A DNA stretch of 41,531 nucleotides from a virus (Duplodnaviria; Heunggongvirae; Uroviricota; Caudoviricetes). Position 1 is the first letter of the stretch. The number at the start of each line of letters is the position of its first letter. This document shows positions 27,001 through 41,531 of this stretch, piece by piece. The DNA lies in IMG/VR virus record IMGVR_UViG_2526164634_000028; one strand, 5' to 3'. The position numbers were made by a program.

Positions 27001-30000
27001 GCGGCACGTATTCATGCGGAAGTTCCGGCGGATGAAAGCCCGGAAATGACAGAAGGCTATGAAGGTTTCTATCACCTGGCGAGCATGAAAGGCACCGTTG
27101 ACCGAGCCGATATGCACTACATCATCCGTGATTTCGACCGTAAACAGTTTGAAGCGCGTAAACGTAAAATGATGGAGATCGCCAAAAAAGTGGGCAAAGG
27201 GTTACATCCTGATTGCTACATTGAACTGGTGATTGAAGACAGTTACTACAATATGCGCGAGAAAGTGGTTGAGCATCCGCATATTATCGATATCGCCCAG
27301 CAGGCGATGCGTGACTGCAATATTGAACCGGAACTGAAACCGATCCGCGGCGGTACCGACGGCGCGCAGTTGTCGTTTATGGGATTACCGTGCCCGAACC
27401 TGTTCACTGGCGGTTACAACTATCATGGTAAGCATGAGTTTGTGACTCTGGAAGGTATGGAAAAAGCGGTGCAGGTGATTGTCCGTATTGCCGAGTTAAC
27501 GGCGCAACGGAAGTCGTGATTGCCCGATGCGTATGTGGACTGCCAATTACCGGGATGAAACCGTTATATTGATACTGGTCAACATACTTATCGTGCCTAC
27601 AGGCGTTCAGTGCATGTAGGCACGATAAGGCGCAATCAGCGCCGCATCCGGCTTAAATCCAAACTTACCCTTCGAAGAACCAATACCCGCTATTGACCAG
27701 CGCCGCGAGCATCGCGAGGAATGACGGATCTTCCAGCGCATCGCCAAAATTCTCCGCAGTCAGCGCAATGTTGCTGGCGAGTGCATCCAGTGCCGGACGG
27801 TGCGGGGAATCGATCTTCTCACCATTGGCATACACGTCGTCGCCAATGCGCAATACGCGCAGACCACCCAGGCGCACCAGCACTTCACCTTGTTTCAGCG
27901 CATCGTAGATTTCATCTGGCTGATAAGGCGGTTCCGGCGGCGCGATATCCAGTTCATGACGTGACTGGGATATAAACTCGCCAAACCATTGCTTAAAGTG
28001 TTCCGGCTGGTTGATCAATTCGAGCATCATCTCACGCAGTTTATCCATCTCTTGCGGCAGAACGTCCGCAGGATGAGCGCGAGGTGGAACATCCGGATCG
28101 CTGTAGTAGTTGCCGCCCAGTTCACGTTGCAGCACATAATCGGCAAATCCGCTAATTAATTCCCGCGTATTTGGCGCGCGAAAACCCACGGAATAGTTCA
28201 TCGCATTTTCCAGCGCGTAGCCTTCATGCGGGAATCCTGGCGGAATATAAAGAATATCGCCAGGCTCCAGCTCTTCATCGATGATGGCTTCGAACGGATC
28301 GACCTGTAACAGATCCGGGTGCGGACAGTGCTGTTTCATTTGCAGCTTTTCGCCCACTCGCCAGCGACGACGACCGGTACCCTGAATGATAAACACGTCG
28401 TACTGATCGAGATGCGGGCCGACGCCGCCGCCCGGTACAGAAAAAGAGATCATCAGATCATCAATACGCCAGTCCGGTAGTTCACGGAACGGTCGCATCA
28501 GCGCGGCGGTCGGCTCATGCCAGTGGTTCACTGCCTGTACCAGTAATGACCAGTTGGTTTCACCGAGATGATCGTAGCTTTCGAACGGGCCGTGGCTGAC
28601 CTGCCATTTGCCATCCTGGTGACTGACCAGTCGACTGTCAACTTCGCTTTCCATCGCCAGACCCGCCAACTCGTCTGGAGAGATCGGGTCAATAAAATTA
28701 TTAAAGCCGCGTTTTAACACCACCGGGCGTTTCTGCCAGTGACGTTCAAGAAAATCGGGCCAGTTAAGAGTGAGTTGGTATTCCATGTTAAGCATCCACA
28801 GGCTGGTATCTGCAACCGATTATAACGGATGCTTAACGTAATGCGTGAAGTATGGACATATTTTATCAATTAGTGTTTTTTGCCGTTTCATAATGTTTCA
28901 GATTGTTCATTATGTTTTTGATTATAAACAGATTTGTGATTTTCCTTGTTCCAGCTTGTTTCACGTTGTAGCCCTTTGTGCAACGATCGGTGTAGTTAAT
29001 GGTGTAGTTAATTGTGATGACCGGAATCAAAATTATGAGCAGAGCACTTAACAAACTGAGCGATACACAGCTGAGGAAAATCAACGGCACACCCGCCCAA
29101 AAAACAGCCTTTCTTAATGACGGTGGAAACCTGAGCGTCAGGCATTCAACCAGTGGCCTTTTAACCTGGTATTTCACTTACAGGGCCGGAACGGGAAGGG
29201 GGGCACCACCGGAACGCATTAAGCTGGGAAATTATCCTGATCTGAGCCTGAAATCAGCCAGGGAAAAAGCCGCCCAGTGTCGCGCATGGCTGGCAGAGGG
29301 GAAAAATCCACGTCATGAGCTTAATTACACCGTACAGGAAGCGTTAAAGCCGGTAACGGTTGGCGATGCGCTCACCTACTGGCTTGAGTCGTACGCAAAG
29401 GAAAACCGCGTGGATTATGCCGCCCTGAAAAAGCGCCTTAATAATCACGTAATACAGCACATTGGTGCTATGCCGCTGGATAAATGCGAGCTACGGCACT
29501 GGCTGGCCTGTTTTGACCAGGTGGCAAAGCGAACGCCTGTTACTGCCGGATTCTTGCTACAGACGTGCAAACAGGCGCTTAAGTTCTGCCGGAGGCGGCG
29601 CTATGCAATCAGCAACGTTCTTGATGATATGAGTGTGGCGGACGTTGGGAAAAACCGGATATAAGCGAGCGTGTCTTAAGCACCAAAGAACTGGGCGAAT
29701 TATTGCAGGCACTGGACAAAAAAATATTCTCCCCCTACTACATCGCGTTAATCCGCCTCCTGATTGTGTTCGGATGCCGGACGGTAGAACTGAGGTTATC
29801 GGAGATCAGCGAGTGGGATTTTACCGAAATGCTCTGGACCGTTCCGAAGGAGCACAGCAAAACGAAGGTAGCCATATTCCGGCCTATACCGGAAGCAATA
29901 CTGCCGTTCATCACGCAGCTGGTGGAGCAGAACAGGCACACGGGCTTATTGCTGGGGGAAGTGAAACAGGAGGCCAGCGTATCGCAGTATGGAAGATTAG

Positions 30001-39000: not shown

Positions 39001-41531
39001 CGTGTCAGATCCTTTCTTTTTTTAATATTTTCATTGTTAAACAGTCTGTTACAGAGAAGAAGATCGGATCTGACTTTTGCCGGAAAATTCTCATAAACAG
39101 ATAAAAACCGCGAGGTCGCCGCCCCGTAACGGGCCATAATTCCAGGAAGGACCCGACGACACCAGACTATCAGAGCGATGGGGGCACAATGACAGAAGCC
39201 GAACTACTGGGATTAATCCGCCGCGTCGCCGGAATCAGCCAGCAGCATGACGAACAGGCCACACAGCCGGACAGCGTGACCGCTGAAAATTATGTGCGTG
39301 TTGTAGCGGAAGTGATGCGCCGTGATGGTATAGAACTTAATGGCGTTGATATGCGCAACATACGGAACCGCGTTCTTGAAATGCTGGCCTACAATCGCCG
39401 CGTTGAACTGTATCGGGAGAAAGAAAAATAACGTACCACTGGAAGAAGCCGGAACGGCTGCGGCGGTAACTTGCTGATATTCCCGATAACGCAAAATTGC
39501 GCTGGCTACATCCCTCACATCTGAGGACTGTTAATCAGAAGGCCGGAATATATTCACAAACTACGAAATTTTCGTAGTTTAATTAATGGTCAGATTAATC
39601 GCTAACCCGCTGATATTTTCGGAAACCTCAATTTGAGGAAGTCGGAAGCGTCACCCTTCATATTCTGAATGGTCATAATGACCACGCAGACCATCAAGGC
39701 AACCACAACGAACATCGTTACGGTTGGAGCTTTTACCCCACTGGGGGAAAGGTATTACGATAATCATAACACCTACCGAACAGGTAAAACCCACCAGCCT
39801 GATTAACAGTTAACCGGAAAAAAAATCCGGTAGCCCCGTTATGGGGATCCCCATATCGACATTAACGCCCCTCATGAATTGGTGCGCTTCCCCCTGGAAA
39901 GATTACCCGCCTGTATATTTCTTGTGTCTATTTGTTCCACGTTGTTTCATACAGTGCACCGAACGGTGTAGTTAATGGTGTAGTCAATTTGCTGTTTTTA
40001 GCACTTTTTGCAGTGTGGGTTGTTTAATTAAATCAATGGGTTGCCTTGCTGTGGTGATAAAAGGACATATTTATTCATCTTTCGGCGCAGAATGCTGGCG
40101 ACCAAAAATCACCTCCATCCGCGCACCGCCCAGCATGCTCTCTCCGGCGACGATTTTACCCTCATATTGCTCGGTGATTTCGCGGGCTACCGCCAGCCCT
40201 ACACCTTGCCCAGGGCGTAAAGTATCAACCCGTTGACCACGGTCGAAAATGACCTCTCGCTTGCTTAATGGAATACCGGGGCCATCATCCTCGACCACAA
40301 TATAGAGATGCTCGTCGGTTTGCCTTGCAGAAATTTCGACAAACTCGAGGCAATATTTACAGGCATTATCCAGCACGTTGCCCATCACCTCGACAAAATC
40401 GTTCTGCTCACCGACAAAGCTGATCTCTGGCGAAATATCGAGAGAGATATTGACCCCTTTGCGTTGATACACTTTGTTCAGCGCTGAGGTGAGATTGTCC
40501 AGCAGTGGGGCGACCGGATGCAGCTCGCGGCTGAGCAATGTCCCGCCGCGCATACTGGCACGATGCAGGTAGTAGCCAATTTGCTGTGAAATGCGGCTGA
40601 TTTGCTCCAGCATTACCGGCTCAGCATCACTGACGCTCATCTTTTCACTACGCAGAGAACGCAGCGTACTTTGCAGCACCGCCAGTGGCGTTTTCAGACT
40701 ATGGGTCAGGTCGGTGAGCGTCGTACGGTATTTGTCGTAACGTTCGCGTTCACTTTTTAACAATCGGTTCAGGTTTCGTACCAGACTGGTCAGTTCTCGC
40801 GTTGTGGCTGGATTGAGCAATTCGCGGTTATGTTCTTCTAGTTCGCGGACTTCTTTTGCCAGGGCTTCGATGGGGCGTAAACTCCACCAGGCGGCGACCC
40901 ACAGCAGCGGGATCACTAACAGCAGATTGGCTGAGAGCACATAGATAAACCAGCTCCAGACCATATAGGAACTTTTTAGCTCCACCGGAATGGTATCCAC
41001 CACCACAAAGGTTAATTTTGGCATCCGCGATGTTGCCGGGTAGACGTTTACTGCCACCGAGTGGGTCATCTCCGCGTCGTCATCATCTTCCCGCACTTCC
41101 TGCAACTGTTGCTGTATCGAATGATCTCCACTTAGCAAGAGGCTGGTATCGTTAACATCCGCTTCAATTTCATGAAAACCATTCGATTTCAGCCAGTCAG
41201 GCTGGATCATCTTCATCAGCCAGGGCACGTCACGTTGCGCCCATAAAAGCTGCCCGTTCTCATCATAAATTAGCGTCATGGTGGGGCTTTGCTTGTCGAT
41301 ATTTTCGGGTAACTCGACATGCAACTTATTGTTTTCCCACTTCGCAAGGGTATAGAACAGATTGCTCTCGCCACGTAACAGCCGAAACGTAGTTTTATCG
41401 AAACTGACGCTATAACCGATCAGCGCGACCATTCCGTAGGCAAGCGAAAGCACCAGTACTACCGCAGCCGTTGCCAACAGAAAACGTACCCGCAGTGAGA
41501 GCGGGAAAAAAAGACGCAGTAATTTTTTCAT

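What the first reader, a model, noticed from the sequence alone, without database searches (positions are those of the whole stretch)
28988..39989. Integrative satellite-like island inserted between roxA and phoQ
An ~11 kb element bounded by imperfect direct repeats carries a P4-type integrase, AlpA, an RHH repressor, a Rep ATPase with iterons, SSB and a partial lambda-type head and packaging module. The mix of integrase, AlpA, rep and packaging genes without lysis or tail genes is the hallmark of a phage satellite (PICI or P4-like), yet the late gene content fits neither class as I know them. It also sits directly next to the phoPQ virulence regulon.
Basis: partly seen in the sequence, partly recalled or inferred. 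Interest (0 to 1): 0.85.

Follow-up and report, generated by a model that had tools for sequence, protein, structure and literature searches.

The report
Known E. coli phage satellite (PICI)
The 11.2-kb insertion between roxA and phoQ is a real phage satellite, but it is a near-identical copy of a phage-inducible chromosomal island catalogued in 2018 (EcCIRM12579, a relative of the studied EcCICFT073), so it is ordinary rather than a new class.

Summary
The island is real and is a satellite. It is not new. It spans window 28854-40072, which is 11,209 bp between two exact copies of the core GGACATATTT. The right copy overlaps the phoQ stop codon, and K-12 has the empty site. The element is 99.8% identical to the island at the same site in E. 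coli O55:H7 RM12579. Fillol-Salom et al. 2018 (ISME J, Table S1) list that island as PICI EcCIRM12579: 11.2 kb, core GGACATATTT, ycfD-phoQ, cargo rdgR and perC. 361 of 5,426 complete E. coli genomes carry it. Its capsid (96.6% aa), decoration (98.2%) and 137-aa genes match those of EcCICFT073, which occupies the same site in CFT073. There is no portal, large terminase, tail or lysis gene. Two modules differ from EcCICFT073: a RepA helicase replaces the primase, and a full-length Nu1-type small terminase replaces RppA. The terminase gene lies between two inverted lambda-type cos sites. The "RHH repressor" is unconfirmed. The integrase in this copy carries a 1-nt homopolymer frameshift.

The parts
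28854..28863 (+). attL core GGACATATTT
   Evidence: Exact match. The junction was defined against the K-12 empty site. It is the same core as published for EcCIRM12579 and EcCICFT073.
28939..29013 (+). Left internal arm repeat containing 2 x GGTGTAGTTAAT (28989-29012). Probable integrase arm-type binding sites (inferred).
   Evidence: (families D1 and D2).
29035..30263 (+). P4-type tyrosine integrase. In this copy it is split into two ORFs by a 1-nt deletion in an A-run at 29649.
   Evidence: The intact 409-aa allele in strain 95NR1 hits Arm-DNA-bind_3 and Phage_integrase. The frameshift was located. No complete E. coli genome shares it.
30628..30816 (+). alpA. In EcCICFT073 it is the helper-activated transcriptional activator of the island.
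   Evidence: Pfam Phage_AlpA 5.4e-17. 93.5% aa identity to CFT073 AlpA. Function taken from PMC6092414.
31620..31817 (+). Icd-like small protein. An Icd-like pseudogene remnant lies upstream at about 30874-31466.
   Evidence: NCBIfam phage_ICD_like 5e-18. RefSeq annotation of the 95NR1 copy.
31810..32703 (+). Four overlapping small ORFs of 70-79 aa with unknown function.
   Evidence: They hit only PHROG families of unknown function. No PADLOC hits.
32709..33008 (+). rgdR homologue (DUF4222, with the RGD motif). Cargo regulator of the LEE type III secretion system.
   Evidence: Pfam DUF4222 1.6e-24. 80.8% aa identity to Sakai ECs1581, which is RgdR. Function from PMC3378721.
33005..34405 (+). 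RepA-family replicative helicase/initiator. It replaces the primase found in EcCICFT073.
   Evidence: Pfam AAA_25 2.4e-43. phrog_2850 over its full length. CFT073 has a 584-aa primase at this position.
34404..34594 (.). Replication origin: six AAAAGTGAGG iterons in two sets flanking an AT-rich stretch.
   Evidence: Same layout as described for E. coli PICI origins (PMC6092414 Fig. 2).
34606..34857 (+). 83-aa ORF of unknown function.
   Evidence: phrog_1231, unknown function.
34854..35264 (+). Single-stranded DNA-binding protein.
   Evidence: Pfam SSB 1.7e-16. 97.8% aa identity to the CFT073 and Sakai copies.
35275..35547 (+). PerC-family activator, a PchE homologue. Cargo.
   Evidence: Pfam PerC 5e-43. 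88.9% aa identity to Sakai PchE.
35674..35898 (+). 74-aa ORF of unknown function.
   Evidence: phrog_1957, unknown function.
36150..36356 (+). 68-aa ORF just upstream of the capsid gene. Possibly ribbon-helix-helix, unconfirmed.
   Evidence: phrog_3255, unknown function. AlphaFold model pLDDT 74.5 with extended-helix-helix topology. No significant fold match.
36356..37411 (+). Lambda gpE-type major capsid protein homologue, equivalent to c1499 of EcCICFT073.
   Evidence: Pfam Phage_cap_E 5.5e-50. 43% identity to lambda E. 96.6% to the CFT073 copy. Best match among phage records is 47%.
37424..37759 (+). Lambda gpD-type head decoration homologue, equivalent to c1500.
   Evidence: Pfam HDPD 5e-18. 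36% identity to lambda D. 98.2% to the CFT073 copy.
37772..38185 (+). 137-aa protein of unknown function. It gives a weak match to the C-terminal end of the prohead protease/scaffold family.
   Evidence: phrog_1999 over its full length, and phrog_53 positions 496-567 of 583 at 6e-9. No BLASTP match to lambda Nu3. AlphaFold model unusable, pLDDT 42.
38215..38290 (+). cos1: cosQ, cosN (GGGCGGCGACCT, 38246-38257) and the adjacent conserved segment. Left arm of a 76-nt inverted repeat.
   Evidence: cosN is identical to lambda's.
38391..38933 (+). Nu1-type small terminase, full length (the true start may be Met6 at 38406). It occupies the position held by rppA in EcCICFT073.
   Evidence: Pfam Phage_Nu1 3e-23. 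phrog_57 8e-53. 36% identity to lambda Nu1 over residues 6-166. No similarity to RppA or RppC.
38961..39072 (-). cosB of cos2: three CAGATCC(T/G)(T/A)TCT elements with lambda R3/R2/R1 geometry.
   Evidence: Offsets from cosN are 53, 108 (inverted) and 153, against 53, 109 (inverted) and 155 in lambda. These are the only three matches in the window.
39080..39155 (-). cos2: inverted copy of cosQ and cosN (cosN at 39113-39124, minus strand).
39189..39431 (+). Last ORF. It is 93 aa in relatives and cut to 80 aa here by a 1-nt A-run deletion at 39423. Unknown function.
   Evidence: phrog_1561. Also conserved in CFT073 (88% aa) and Sakai Sp7.
39915..39989 (+). Right internal arm repeat containing GGTGTAGTTAAT and GGTGTAGTCAAT.
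40063..40072 (+). attR core GGACATATTT. It overlaps the phoQ stop codon by 2 nt.
   Evidence: The phoQ ORF ends at 40071.

Best explanation
This is a Gram-negative phage-inducible chromosomal island of the EcCICFT073 family, an allele of the catalogued element EcCIRM12579. It is integrated at the shared attB at the 3' end of phoQ.

What the sequence shows directly:
- An 11,209-bp insertion between two GGACATATTT cores.
- All genes on one strand, running from the integrase.
- The order int, alpA, small ORFs, rgdR, repA with an iteron origin, ssb, perC, then a late block: 68-aa ORF, lambda-E-like capsid, lambda-D-like decoration, 137-aa ORF, cos1, Nu1-type terS, an inverted cosB, and cos2.

Life cycle, inferred by homology to EcCICFT073:
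1. A helper lambdoid phage switches on alpA.
2. AlpA activates the island's genes.
3. Int excises the element. RepA replicates it from the iteron origin.
4. The concatemer is cut at lambda-type cosN sites by the helper's gpA-type large terminase and packaged into helper-built, helper-tailed particles.

Where this allele differs. EcCICFT073 redirects the helper's small terminase with RppA. This allele instead encodes its own full-length Nu1-type small terminase. I infer that this protein binds island-specific cos sequences and recruits the helper's large terminase through its Nu1-like C-terminal region.

Four copies of the element total 44.8 kb, or 92% of the lambda genome length. That would fill a lambda-sized head, consistent with the reported phage-sized packaging of EcCICFT073.

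The role of the capsid, decoration and 137-aa genes is unknown. In EcCICFT073, deleting the capsid or the decoration gene changed neither transfer nor interference.

RgdR and the PchE-like PerC are cargo regulators of the LEE type III secretion system.

If the integrase frameshift is real, this particular copy cannot excise on its own.
For: Identity with the catalogued element:
- 99.8% identity over 12 kb to NC_017656.1 1437801-1449804 (H17). This range contains the published EcCIRM12579 coordinates 1438155-1449376. Core, site and cargo are the same.
- The att cores are exact, and the K-12 site is empty.

PICI core components, all found by profile search:
- int, alpA, rep, capsid and terS.
- Iterons 3' of rep, as described for E. 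coli PICIs.

Relationship to EcCICFT073 at the same attB:
- Int 96.8%, AlpA 93.5%, RgdR 92.9%, SSB 97.8%, capsid protein 96.6%, decoration protein 98.2%, 137-aa protein 97.1% amino-acid identity.
- Similarity breaks exactly at the cos inverted-repeat arms.

Packaging features:
- cosQ and cosN are identical or nearly identical to lambda's.
- The small terminase aligns with lambda Nu1 across almost its full length, including the C-terminal region.

Separation from phages:
- No phage record encodes a small terminase more than 44% identical or a capsid protein more than 47% identical. These are satellite-specific lineages, not recent phage debris.

Spread:
- 361 of 5,426 complete E. coli genomes carry at least 80% of the 12-kb query.
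- The terS cassette is in 766 genomes, including IHE3034, whose island was marker-tagged in PMC6092414.

The EcCICFT073 biology comes from PMC6092414 and PMC6739421.
Against: - Nothing in this work shows induction, excision or transfer of this allele. The helper is unknown.
- The integrase is frameshifted here.
- The element lacks Rpp, the only packaging mechanism worked out experimentally for this family. The terS-based packaging step is therefore inferred.
- The N-terminal DNA-binding region of the small terminase is diverged from both lambda Nu1 and the Nu1 of phage SerU-LTIIb, the one phage that shares the cos2 R-element sequence. Which cos site the protein reads is unresolved.
- The island tagged in IHE3034, which carries this kind of terS cassette, transferred only at very low frequency from its native strain (Table 1 of PMC6092414).
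Confidence: 0.93

Rival explanations
1. This copy is a decaying, immobile PICI. The integrase frameshift, and the truncation of the last ORF, are real mutations, and the island is now fixed in the chromosome mainly as a carrier of rgdR and perC.
For: A 1-nt deletion splits int. None of the 661 complete genomes that carry this int segment shares the deletion. A second A-run deletion shortens the last ORF from 93 to 80 aa.
Against: All three indels relative to strain 95NR1 are single-A losses in homopolymer runs, which is the typical pattern of sequencing or assembly error. The rest of the element is 99.9% identical to intact copies. The 4.3 kb of flanking chromosome shows no indels, but that stretch is too short to exclude an error rate of this size.
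Confidence: 0.35
2. The element is a degraded lambdoid prophage remnant that has kept fragments of its head and packaging genes.
For: The E, D and Nu1 homologues and a lambda-identical cosN are present. A related element at this site was annotated historically as a cryptic prophage (PMC3378721).
Against: The gene order is E, D, 137-aa ORF, cos, Nu1. It is not the lambda order of cos, Nu1, A, W, B, C, D, E. The proteins are only 36-47% identical to any phage counterpart. There are no remnants of portal, large terminase, tail, lysis or immunity genes. The whole architecture is conserved at 99.8% in hundreds of genomes. It matches an experimentally mobile satellite.
Confidence: 0.03
3. The element is a P4-like satellite.
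For: It has a P4-type integrase and an AlpA/Vis-like regulator. It carries an Icd-like protein.
Against: No ORF matches Psu, Sid, Delta/Ogr or an alpha-type primase in the Pfam, PHROG or NCBIfam scans. Its cos is lambda-type, not P2/P4-type. PMC6092414 states that only Int, AlpA and Pri-Rep show distant homology between P4 and the E. coli PICIs.
Confidence: 0.02
4. The element is a capsid-forming PICI (cf-PICI) that builds its own heads.
For: It encodes a capsid protein, a decoration protein and possibly a scaffold-like protein. The same attB in Sakai and EDL933 holds a true cf-PICI whose integrase is 99.5% identical.
Against: It has no portal, protease, head-tail adaptor or connector, HNH or large terminase. 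Its capsid protein is lambda-E type, whereas the capsid gene of the Sakai element is annotated differently and sits in a portal, protease and large-terminase module. EcCICFT073, which has the same capsid genes, is packaged in phage-sized capsids (PMC6739421).
Confidence: 0.02

Closest known systems
EcCIRM12579 (E. coli O55:H7 RM12579; Fillol-Salom et al. 2018, ISME J, Table S1). The same table notes the same island in O157:H7 EC4115 and TW14359 and in O55:H7 CB9615.
   Same: The same element. It is 99.8% identical over the island plus flanks. It has the same ycfD(roxA)-phoQ site, the same GGACATATTT core, the same 11.2 kb size and the same rdgR and perC cargo.
   Different: The differences measured against the closest copy (strain 95NR1) were 4 substitutions and 3 single-A deletions, one of which breaks int; differences from the RM12579 copy itself were not itemised.
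EcCICFT073, the experimentally characterised Gram-negative cos PICI
   Same: Same attB and core. Same gene order and one-strand organisation. Int, AlpA, RgdR, SSB, capsid, decoration and 137-aa proteins are 93-98% identical. Both have two inverted lambda-type cos sites flanking the packaging-specificity gene.
   Different: The replication module is a RepA helicase rather than a primase. The cassette between the cos sites encodes a 180-aa Nu1-type small terminase instead of the 144-aa RppA, with no detectable similarity between them. The repeated elements in cos2 cosB also differ: CAGATCC-type here, CATGTCCGG-type in CFT073.
Sp7 / CP-933C / O-island 51 of O157:H7 Sakai and EDL933. By size and gene content this matches EcCIEDL933, the prototype capsid-forming PICI.
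   Same: Same attB. Integrase 99.5% identical. The int-alpA-Icd block is 94% identical at the nucleotide level, as is the SSB-PchE block. The last ORF and right end are shared. Both carry RgdR and PchE.
   Different: Sp7 carries a complete head and packaging module: capsid, protease, portal, adaptors, small terminase and large terminase. The window element has none of these except an unrelated capsid protein and small terminase.
SaPI-type pac islands that encode their own small terminase
   Same: The strategy is the same: the satellite encodes its own small terminase to direct the helper's large terminase to satellite DNA (PMC6739421 discussion).
   Different: Those islands use headful (pac) packaging and are found in Gram-positive hosts, with an unrelated small terminase family. 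Here the terminase is a cos-type Nu1 homologue. This is a resemblance in how the element works, not family membership.
Phage lambda head and packaging genes (Nu1, D, E, cos)
   Same: cosN is identical and cosQ nearly so. The cos2 cosB has lambda's R3/R2/R1 spacing. The Nu1, D and E homologues are 36%, 36% and 43% identical to lambda's.
   Different: There is no A, W, B, C/Nu3 or FI/FII gene, and no tail genes. The gene order differs, and the R-element sequence differs.

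Membership tests
Gram-negative PICI (Fillol-Salom 2018; SatelliteFinder PICI model) | Integrase at one end, with site-specific insertion at a dedicated att site | tested here: met
   P4-type Int, frameshifted in this copy. Exact 10-bp cores at both ends, and an empty site in K-12. The same site is occupied by other PICIs in CFT073 and Sakai.
Gram-negative PICI (Fillol-Salom 2018; SatelliteFinder PICI model) | AlpA-type (or MerR/Stl-type) regulator next to int | tested here: met
   Pfam Phage_AlpA 5.4e-17.
Gram-negative PICI (Fillol-Salom 2018; SatelliteFinder PICI model) | Own primase/replicase, with an iteron origin immediately 3' of it | tested here: met
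   RepA with AAA_25 domain. Six iterons in two sets around an AT-rich stretch at 34404-34594.
Gram-negative PICI (Fillol-Salom 2018; SatelliteFinder PICI model) | Capsid-morphogenesis homologue | tested here: met
   Phage_cap_E and HDPD homologues, 96-98% identical to c1499 and c1500 of EcCICFT073.
Gram-negative PICI (Fillol-Salom 2018; SatelliteFinder PICI model) | Small terminase or other packaging-redirection gene, and/or cos or pac site | tested here: met
   Nu1-type small terminase. Two lambda-type cos sites.
Gram-negative PICI (Fillol-Salom 2018; SatelliteFinder PICI model) | No tail, lysis, portal or large terminase genes; size about 9-15 kb; genes transcribed in one direction away from int | tested here: met
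   11.2 kb. All 19 assigned genes lie on the + strand. No such families appear in the Pfam, PHROG or NCBIfam scans, and no unassigned ORF is large enough.
Gram-negative PICI (Fillol-Salom 2018; SatelliteFinder PICI model) | Helper-phage-dependent induction, packaging and high-frequency transfer, with interference against the helper | not testable with these tools
   This has been shown only for relatives, such as EcCICFT073.
Rpp-type cos PICI (Fillol-Salom 2019) | Encodes an Rpp protein (RppA, RppB or RppC) that forms a heterodimer with the helper's small terminase | tested here: not met
   No ORF matches RppC (PDB 6HLK), whereas CFT073 RppA matches it at 5e-31. BLASTP of the small terminase against RppA gives E = 3.4.
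Capsid-forming PICI (cf-PICI) | Large terminase, portal, prohead protease, and head-tail adaptor and connector | tested here: not met
   All are absent here. All are present in Sakai Sp7 at the same site.
P4-like satellite | Psu, Sid, Delta, Epsilon, alpha primase; P2-type cos | tested here: not met
   No matching families were found. The cos is lambda-type.
Defective lambdoid prophage | Collinear remnants of phage modules (immunity, replication O/P, lysis, head, tail) with high identity to phage genes | tested here: not met
   The gene order is not collinear with lambda. The best phage identities are 44-47%.

The most novel reading that the evidence does not exclude
Enterobacterial cos PICIs may have a swappable packaging cassette bounded by two inverted cos sites. 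The cassette would hold the DNA-binding subunit (RppA in one allele, a full Nu1-type small terminase in this one) together with a cos2-side cosB.

In this reading the two cos sites do different jobs. cos2 mimics the cosB of a natural helper phage. Here its AGATCC-type R3/R2/R1 elements match those of phage SerU-LTIIb. In CFT073 its CATGTCCGG-type elements resemble those of helper phage phi4. cos1 would be the private site read by the island's own protein.

This terS-type allele would then be a Gram-negative cos-packaging counterpart of the SaPI 'own small terminase' strategy, which has not been dissected experimentally.
Probability: 0.3. Interest if true: 0.4.

Novelty: already known. Interest (0 to 1): 0.15.

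Why it matters
The finding mainly serves annotation. The 11.2 kb next to phoPQ should be labelled as PICI EcCIRM12579-type, not as a new satellite class or a cryptic prophage.

The element has some biological relevance. It carries RgdR and a PchE-like PerC regulator. Homologues of both control LEE type III secretion in EHEC.

The roxA-phoQ attachment site is a satellite hotspot. It holds an Rpp-type PICI in CFT073, a capsid-forming PICI in Sakai and EDL933, and this terS-type PICI in O55:H7, O111 and some O157:H7 strains.

Two questions remain open. One is how the terS-type cassette packages the island. The other is what the conserved capsid, decoration and 137-aa genes do. Both concern the PICI family as a whole and are not specific to this window.

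Tried and rejected
- Rpp search. The 180-aa, 137-aa and 80-aa late proteins gave no PDB match at E <= 1 to RppC or to any terminase. The positive control, CFT073 RppA, matched RppC at 5e-31. The element therefore has no Rpp.
- Scaffold idea for the 137-aa protein. It gave only a weak PHROG hit to the C-terminal end of the prohead protease/scaffold family. There was no BLASTP similarity to lambda Nu3, and the single-sequence AlphaFold model was unusable at pLDDT 42. The idea is left as a lead.
- RHH repressor. The 68-aa ORF has no Pfam or NCBIfam hit. Its model is compatible with ribbon-helix-helix, but the best Foldseek hit (TraM DNA-binding domain) has E = 1.8. Not confirmed.
- Neighbouring prophage as helper. 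Its gpA-family large terminase is only 25% identical to lambda gpA and lacks its N-terminal part at the window edge. Strain 95NR1 has a different prophage at that position. No support.
- Search for a helper through cosB. Only one phage record, SerU-LTIIb, shares the AGATCC-type R elements, and its cosN region differs from lambda's. No candidate helper was identified.
- Rfam, tRNA and PADLOC scans of the island found nothing.
- A literature search for the element's name in main texts found nothing. The name appears only in a supplementary table.

Full report
**What is there**

The region holds a compact block of same-strand genes between roxA (27665-28795, minus strand) and phoQ (40071-41531, minus strand). 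In K-12 MG1655 these two genes are 75 bp apart.

I aligned the K-12 intergenic sequence with the two junctions in the window. Chromosomal sequence stops and resumes at an exact 10-bp repeat, GGACATATTT, at 28854-28863 and 40063-40072. K-12 has GGGCATATTT at that position. The right copy overlaps the phoQ stop codon by two bases. The element is 11,209 bp from core to core.

Those positions fall inside a different pair of repeats: 75-nt segments at 28939-29013 and 39915-39989. They are 76% identical, and each contains two GGTGTAGTTAAT units. They lie about 80 bp inside each core. In the excised circle they would flank the core, which is the expected layout for integrase arm-type sites. That reading is an inference.

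**Gene content**

- A P4-type tyrosine integrase with an arm-binding domain.
- AlpA.
- An Icd-like protein.
- A DUF4222 protein with an RGD motif, 80.8% identical to Sakai RgdR (ECs1581).
- A RepA-family AAA_25 helicase.
- Six AAAAGTGAGG iterons in two sets around an AT-rich stretch, immediately 3' of repA.
- SSB.
- A PerC-family protein, 88.9% identical to PchE.
- A late block: a 68-aa ORF, a lambda-E-type capsid protein, a lambda-D-type decoration protein, a 137-aa protein of unknown function, and a Nu1-type small terminase.

The only ORFs above 200 aa are Int, RepA and the capsid protein. Nothing matches a portal, large terminase, protease, tail or lysis protein.

The "RHH repressor" could not be confirmed. 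The 68-aa ORF has no family hit. Its single-sequence model (pLDDT 74.5, extended-helix-helix) has no significant structural match.

**It is already catalogued**

A 12-kb query spanning the island matches 361 of 5,426 complete E. coli genomes over at least 80% of its length. Identity is 99.7-99.9% in O111, O55:H7 and some O157:H7 strains.

One of these matches is NC_017656.1 (O55:H7 RM12579), 1437801-1449804, at 99.8% identity. Table S1 of Fillol-Salom et al. 2018 (PMC6092414) lists [quoted passage not shown]. The same file notes the same island in O55:H7 CB9615 and O157:H7 EC4115 and TW14359. The window element is an allele of that named PICI.

**Relation to the studied relatives**

CFT073 carries EcCICFT073 at the same attB. 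Amino-acid identities to the window element are:

| Protein | Identity to EcCICFT073 |
|---|---|
| Int | 96.8% |
| AlpA | 93.5% |
| RgdR | 92.9% |
| SSB | 97.8% |
| Capsid | 96.6% |
| Decoration | 98.2% |
| 137-aa protein | 97.1% |

(All.)

PMC6092414 describes the EcCICFT073 capsid (c1499) and head-decoration (c1500) homologues. It reports that deleting either one changes neither transfer nor interference. SatelliteFinder's PICI model counts a capsid-morphogenesis gene and a small terminase among its five core components. The late gene set that seemed to fit no class is therefore the standard enterobacterial PICI set.

Sakai carries Sp7 at the same attB. Sp7 is also known as CP-933C and O-island 51, and matches EcCIEDL933, the prototype capsid-forming PICI, by size and gene content. 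It shares the int-alpA block, the SSB-PchE block and the right end at about 94% nucleotide identity. Unlike the window element, it has a full capsid, protease, portal, adaptor and large-terminase module.

The site is a satellite hotspot, and the elements in it are mosaics of shared modules.

**What differs from EcCICFT073**

Two modules are replaced.

*Replication.* The window element has a 466-aa RepA helicase where EcCICFT073 has a 584-aa primase.

*Packaging.* Both elements contain two lambda-type cos sites in inverted orientation. In the window they form a 76-nt inverted repeat, 91% complementary, at 38215-38290 and 39080-39155. cosN (GGGCGGCGACCT) sits at 38246-38257 on the + strand and at 39113-39124 on the minus strand.

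Nucleotide similarity between the two islands stops exactly at these arms. Between them, CFT073 has rppA (144 aa), which matches RppC (PDB 6HLK) at 5e-31. The window has a 180-aa protein with no similarity to RppA or RppC. That protein aligns with lambda Nu1 over residues 6-166 at 36% identity, including the C-terminal region. Its closest phage relative is N15 gp1 at 44%. This terS cassette occurs in 766 of 5,426 genomes, including IHE3034.

**cos details**

Reading from cos2 on the minus strand, three copies of CAGATCC(T/G)(T/A)TCT lie at offsets 53, 108 (inverted) and 153 from cosN. Lambda's R3, R2 and R1 lie at 53, 109 (inverted) and 155. These are the only three matches to that motif in the whole window.

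cos1 has cosQ, cosN and the adjacent conserved segment, but no such repeats. It has an 11-bp perfect inverted repeat just before the terS start codon.

The same AGATCC-type R3/R2/R1 set occurs in one phage record, SerU-LTIIb. The N-terminal DNA-binding region of that phage's Nu1 is lambda-like and unlike the island's small terminase.

In CFT073, cos2 has three CATGTCCGG-type repeats. They resemble the cosB of phi4, its resident helper, as printed in Fig. S5 of PMC6092414.

One reading is that cos2 copies a helper's cosB and cos1 is the island's private site. This is speculation and is recorded as the novel case.

**Most likely mechanism**

By homology with EcCICFT073:
1. A helper lambdoid phage activates alpA.
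2. AlpA turns on the island's genes.
3. Int excises the element, and RepA replicates it from the iteron origin.
4. The helper's gpA-type large terminase cuts at the lambda-type cosN, and the DNA enters helper-made heads.

For this allele I infer that the island's own Nu1-type small terminase, rather than an Rpp-helper heterocomplex, provides cos recognition and recruits the large terminase.

Four copies of the element total 44.8 kb, which is 92% of the lambda genome length. That fits the phage-sized packaging reported for EcCICFT073. None of these steps was or could be tested here.

**State of this copy**

Against the closest relative (strain 95NR1) the island differs by 4 substitutions and 3 single-A deletions in A-runs. 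One deletion, at 29649, splits int. Another, at 39423, shortens the last ORF. None of the 661 complete genomes that carry this int segment has the deletion. The 4.3 kb of flanking chromosome has no indels. A sequencing artefact and a real inactivation cannot be told apart from the sequence alone.

**Verdict**

The satellite interpretation is right, and the suggestion of a new class is not. Novelty: already known. Interest is low. A modest residual question remains about how terS-type cos PICIs package and what the conserved capsid-like genes do.

Noticed in passing
window 1-24000: The left part of the window is the late region of a lambdoid prophage next to potB. It encodes a gpA-family large terminase (257-1960), a lambda-family portal, a ClpP protease/capsid fusion protein, tail genes, gpJ and a tail fibre. 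These are followed by two NleG effectors (19837-20316 and 21582-22232), an IS1 (22492-23190) and an IpaB/EvcA-family ORF (23307-23783). The large terminase lacks about 126 N-terminal positions of the ATPase profile, and bases 1-256 look like the end of another mobile element. This prophage is probably defective for packaging and is not an obvious helper.
   Followed up: partly
window 29649, 30940, 39423: All three indels relative to the closest relative are single-A losses in homopolymer runs. Two of them break ORFs (int and the last 93-aa ORF). No complete E. coli genome shares the int frameshift. The cause is either a sequencing artefact or private decay.
   Followed up: partly
window 35554-35571, 35918-35935, 38191-38208: Three copies of nearly the same terminator hairpin, AGCCGGAG(A/C)AATCCGGC followed by a T-run, sit after perC, after the 74-aa ORF and after the 137-aa ORF. 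They appear to separate the early, middle and late blocks.
   Followed up: no
window 38352-38390: An 11-bp perfect inverted repeat, AATACACCAAC / GTTGGTGTATT, is separated by 16-17 nt and ends at the terS start codon. It could be a regulatory or terminase-binding site within cos1.
   Followed up: no
window 38961-39072; L009 (phage SerU-LTIIb, KU052038.1): The cosB of cos2 has lambda's R3/R2/R1 spacing but AGATCC-type elements. The same type occurs in the LT-IIb enterotoxin phage SerU-LTIIb, the only such record among 50,697 phage records, although that phage's cosN region differs from lambda's.
   Followed up: partly
L002 (CFT073) 11100-11300: cos2 of EcCICFT073 carries three CATGTCCGG-type repeats. 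They resemble the cosB of its resident helper phi4 as printed in the 2018 supplement. This suggests that the second cos site of these islands mimics a helper's cosB.
   Followed up: partly
window 37772-38185: The conserved 137-aa late protein gives a weak profile match (6e-9) to the extreme C-terminus of the prohead protease/scaffold family. With the capsid and decoration homologues, this hints at a shell module (capsid, decoration, scaffold-like) of unknown role.
   Followed up: partly
window 28854-40072 compared with L002 and L003: The same attB at the phoQ stop codon holds three different satellites in different strains: an Rpp-type PICI, a terS-type PICI and a capsid-forming PICI. Their integrases are 96.8-99.5% identical, and they share early modules.
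   Followed up: yes
L007 (95NR1) 1352000-1400100: Strain 95NR1 has a near-identical PICI but a different neighbouring prophage: an HK97-type phage with HNH, small terminase and large terminase that carries the NleL, EspN and EspK effectors. The PICI and the adjacent prophage therefore vary independently between strains.
   Followed up: no
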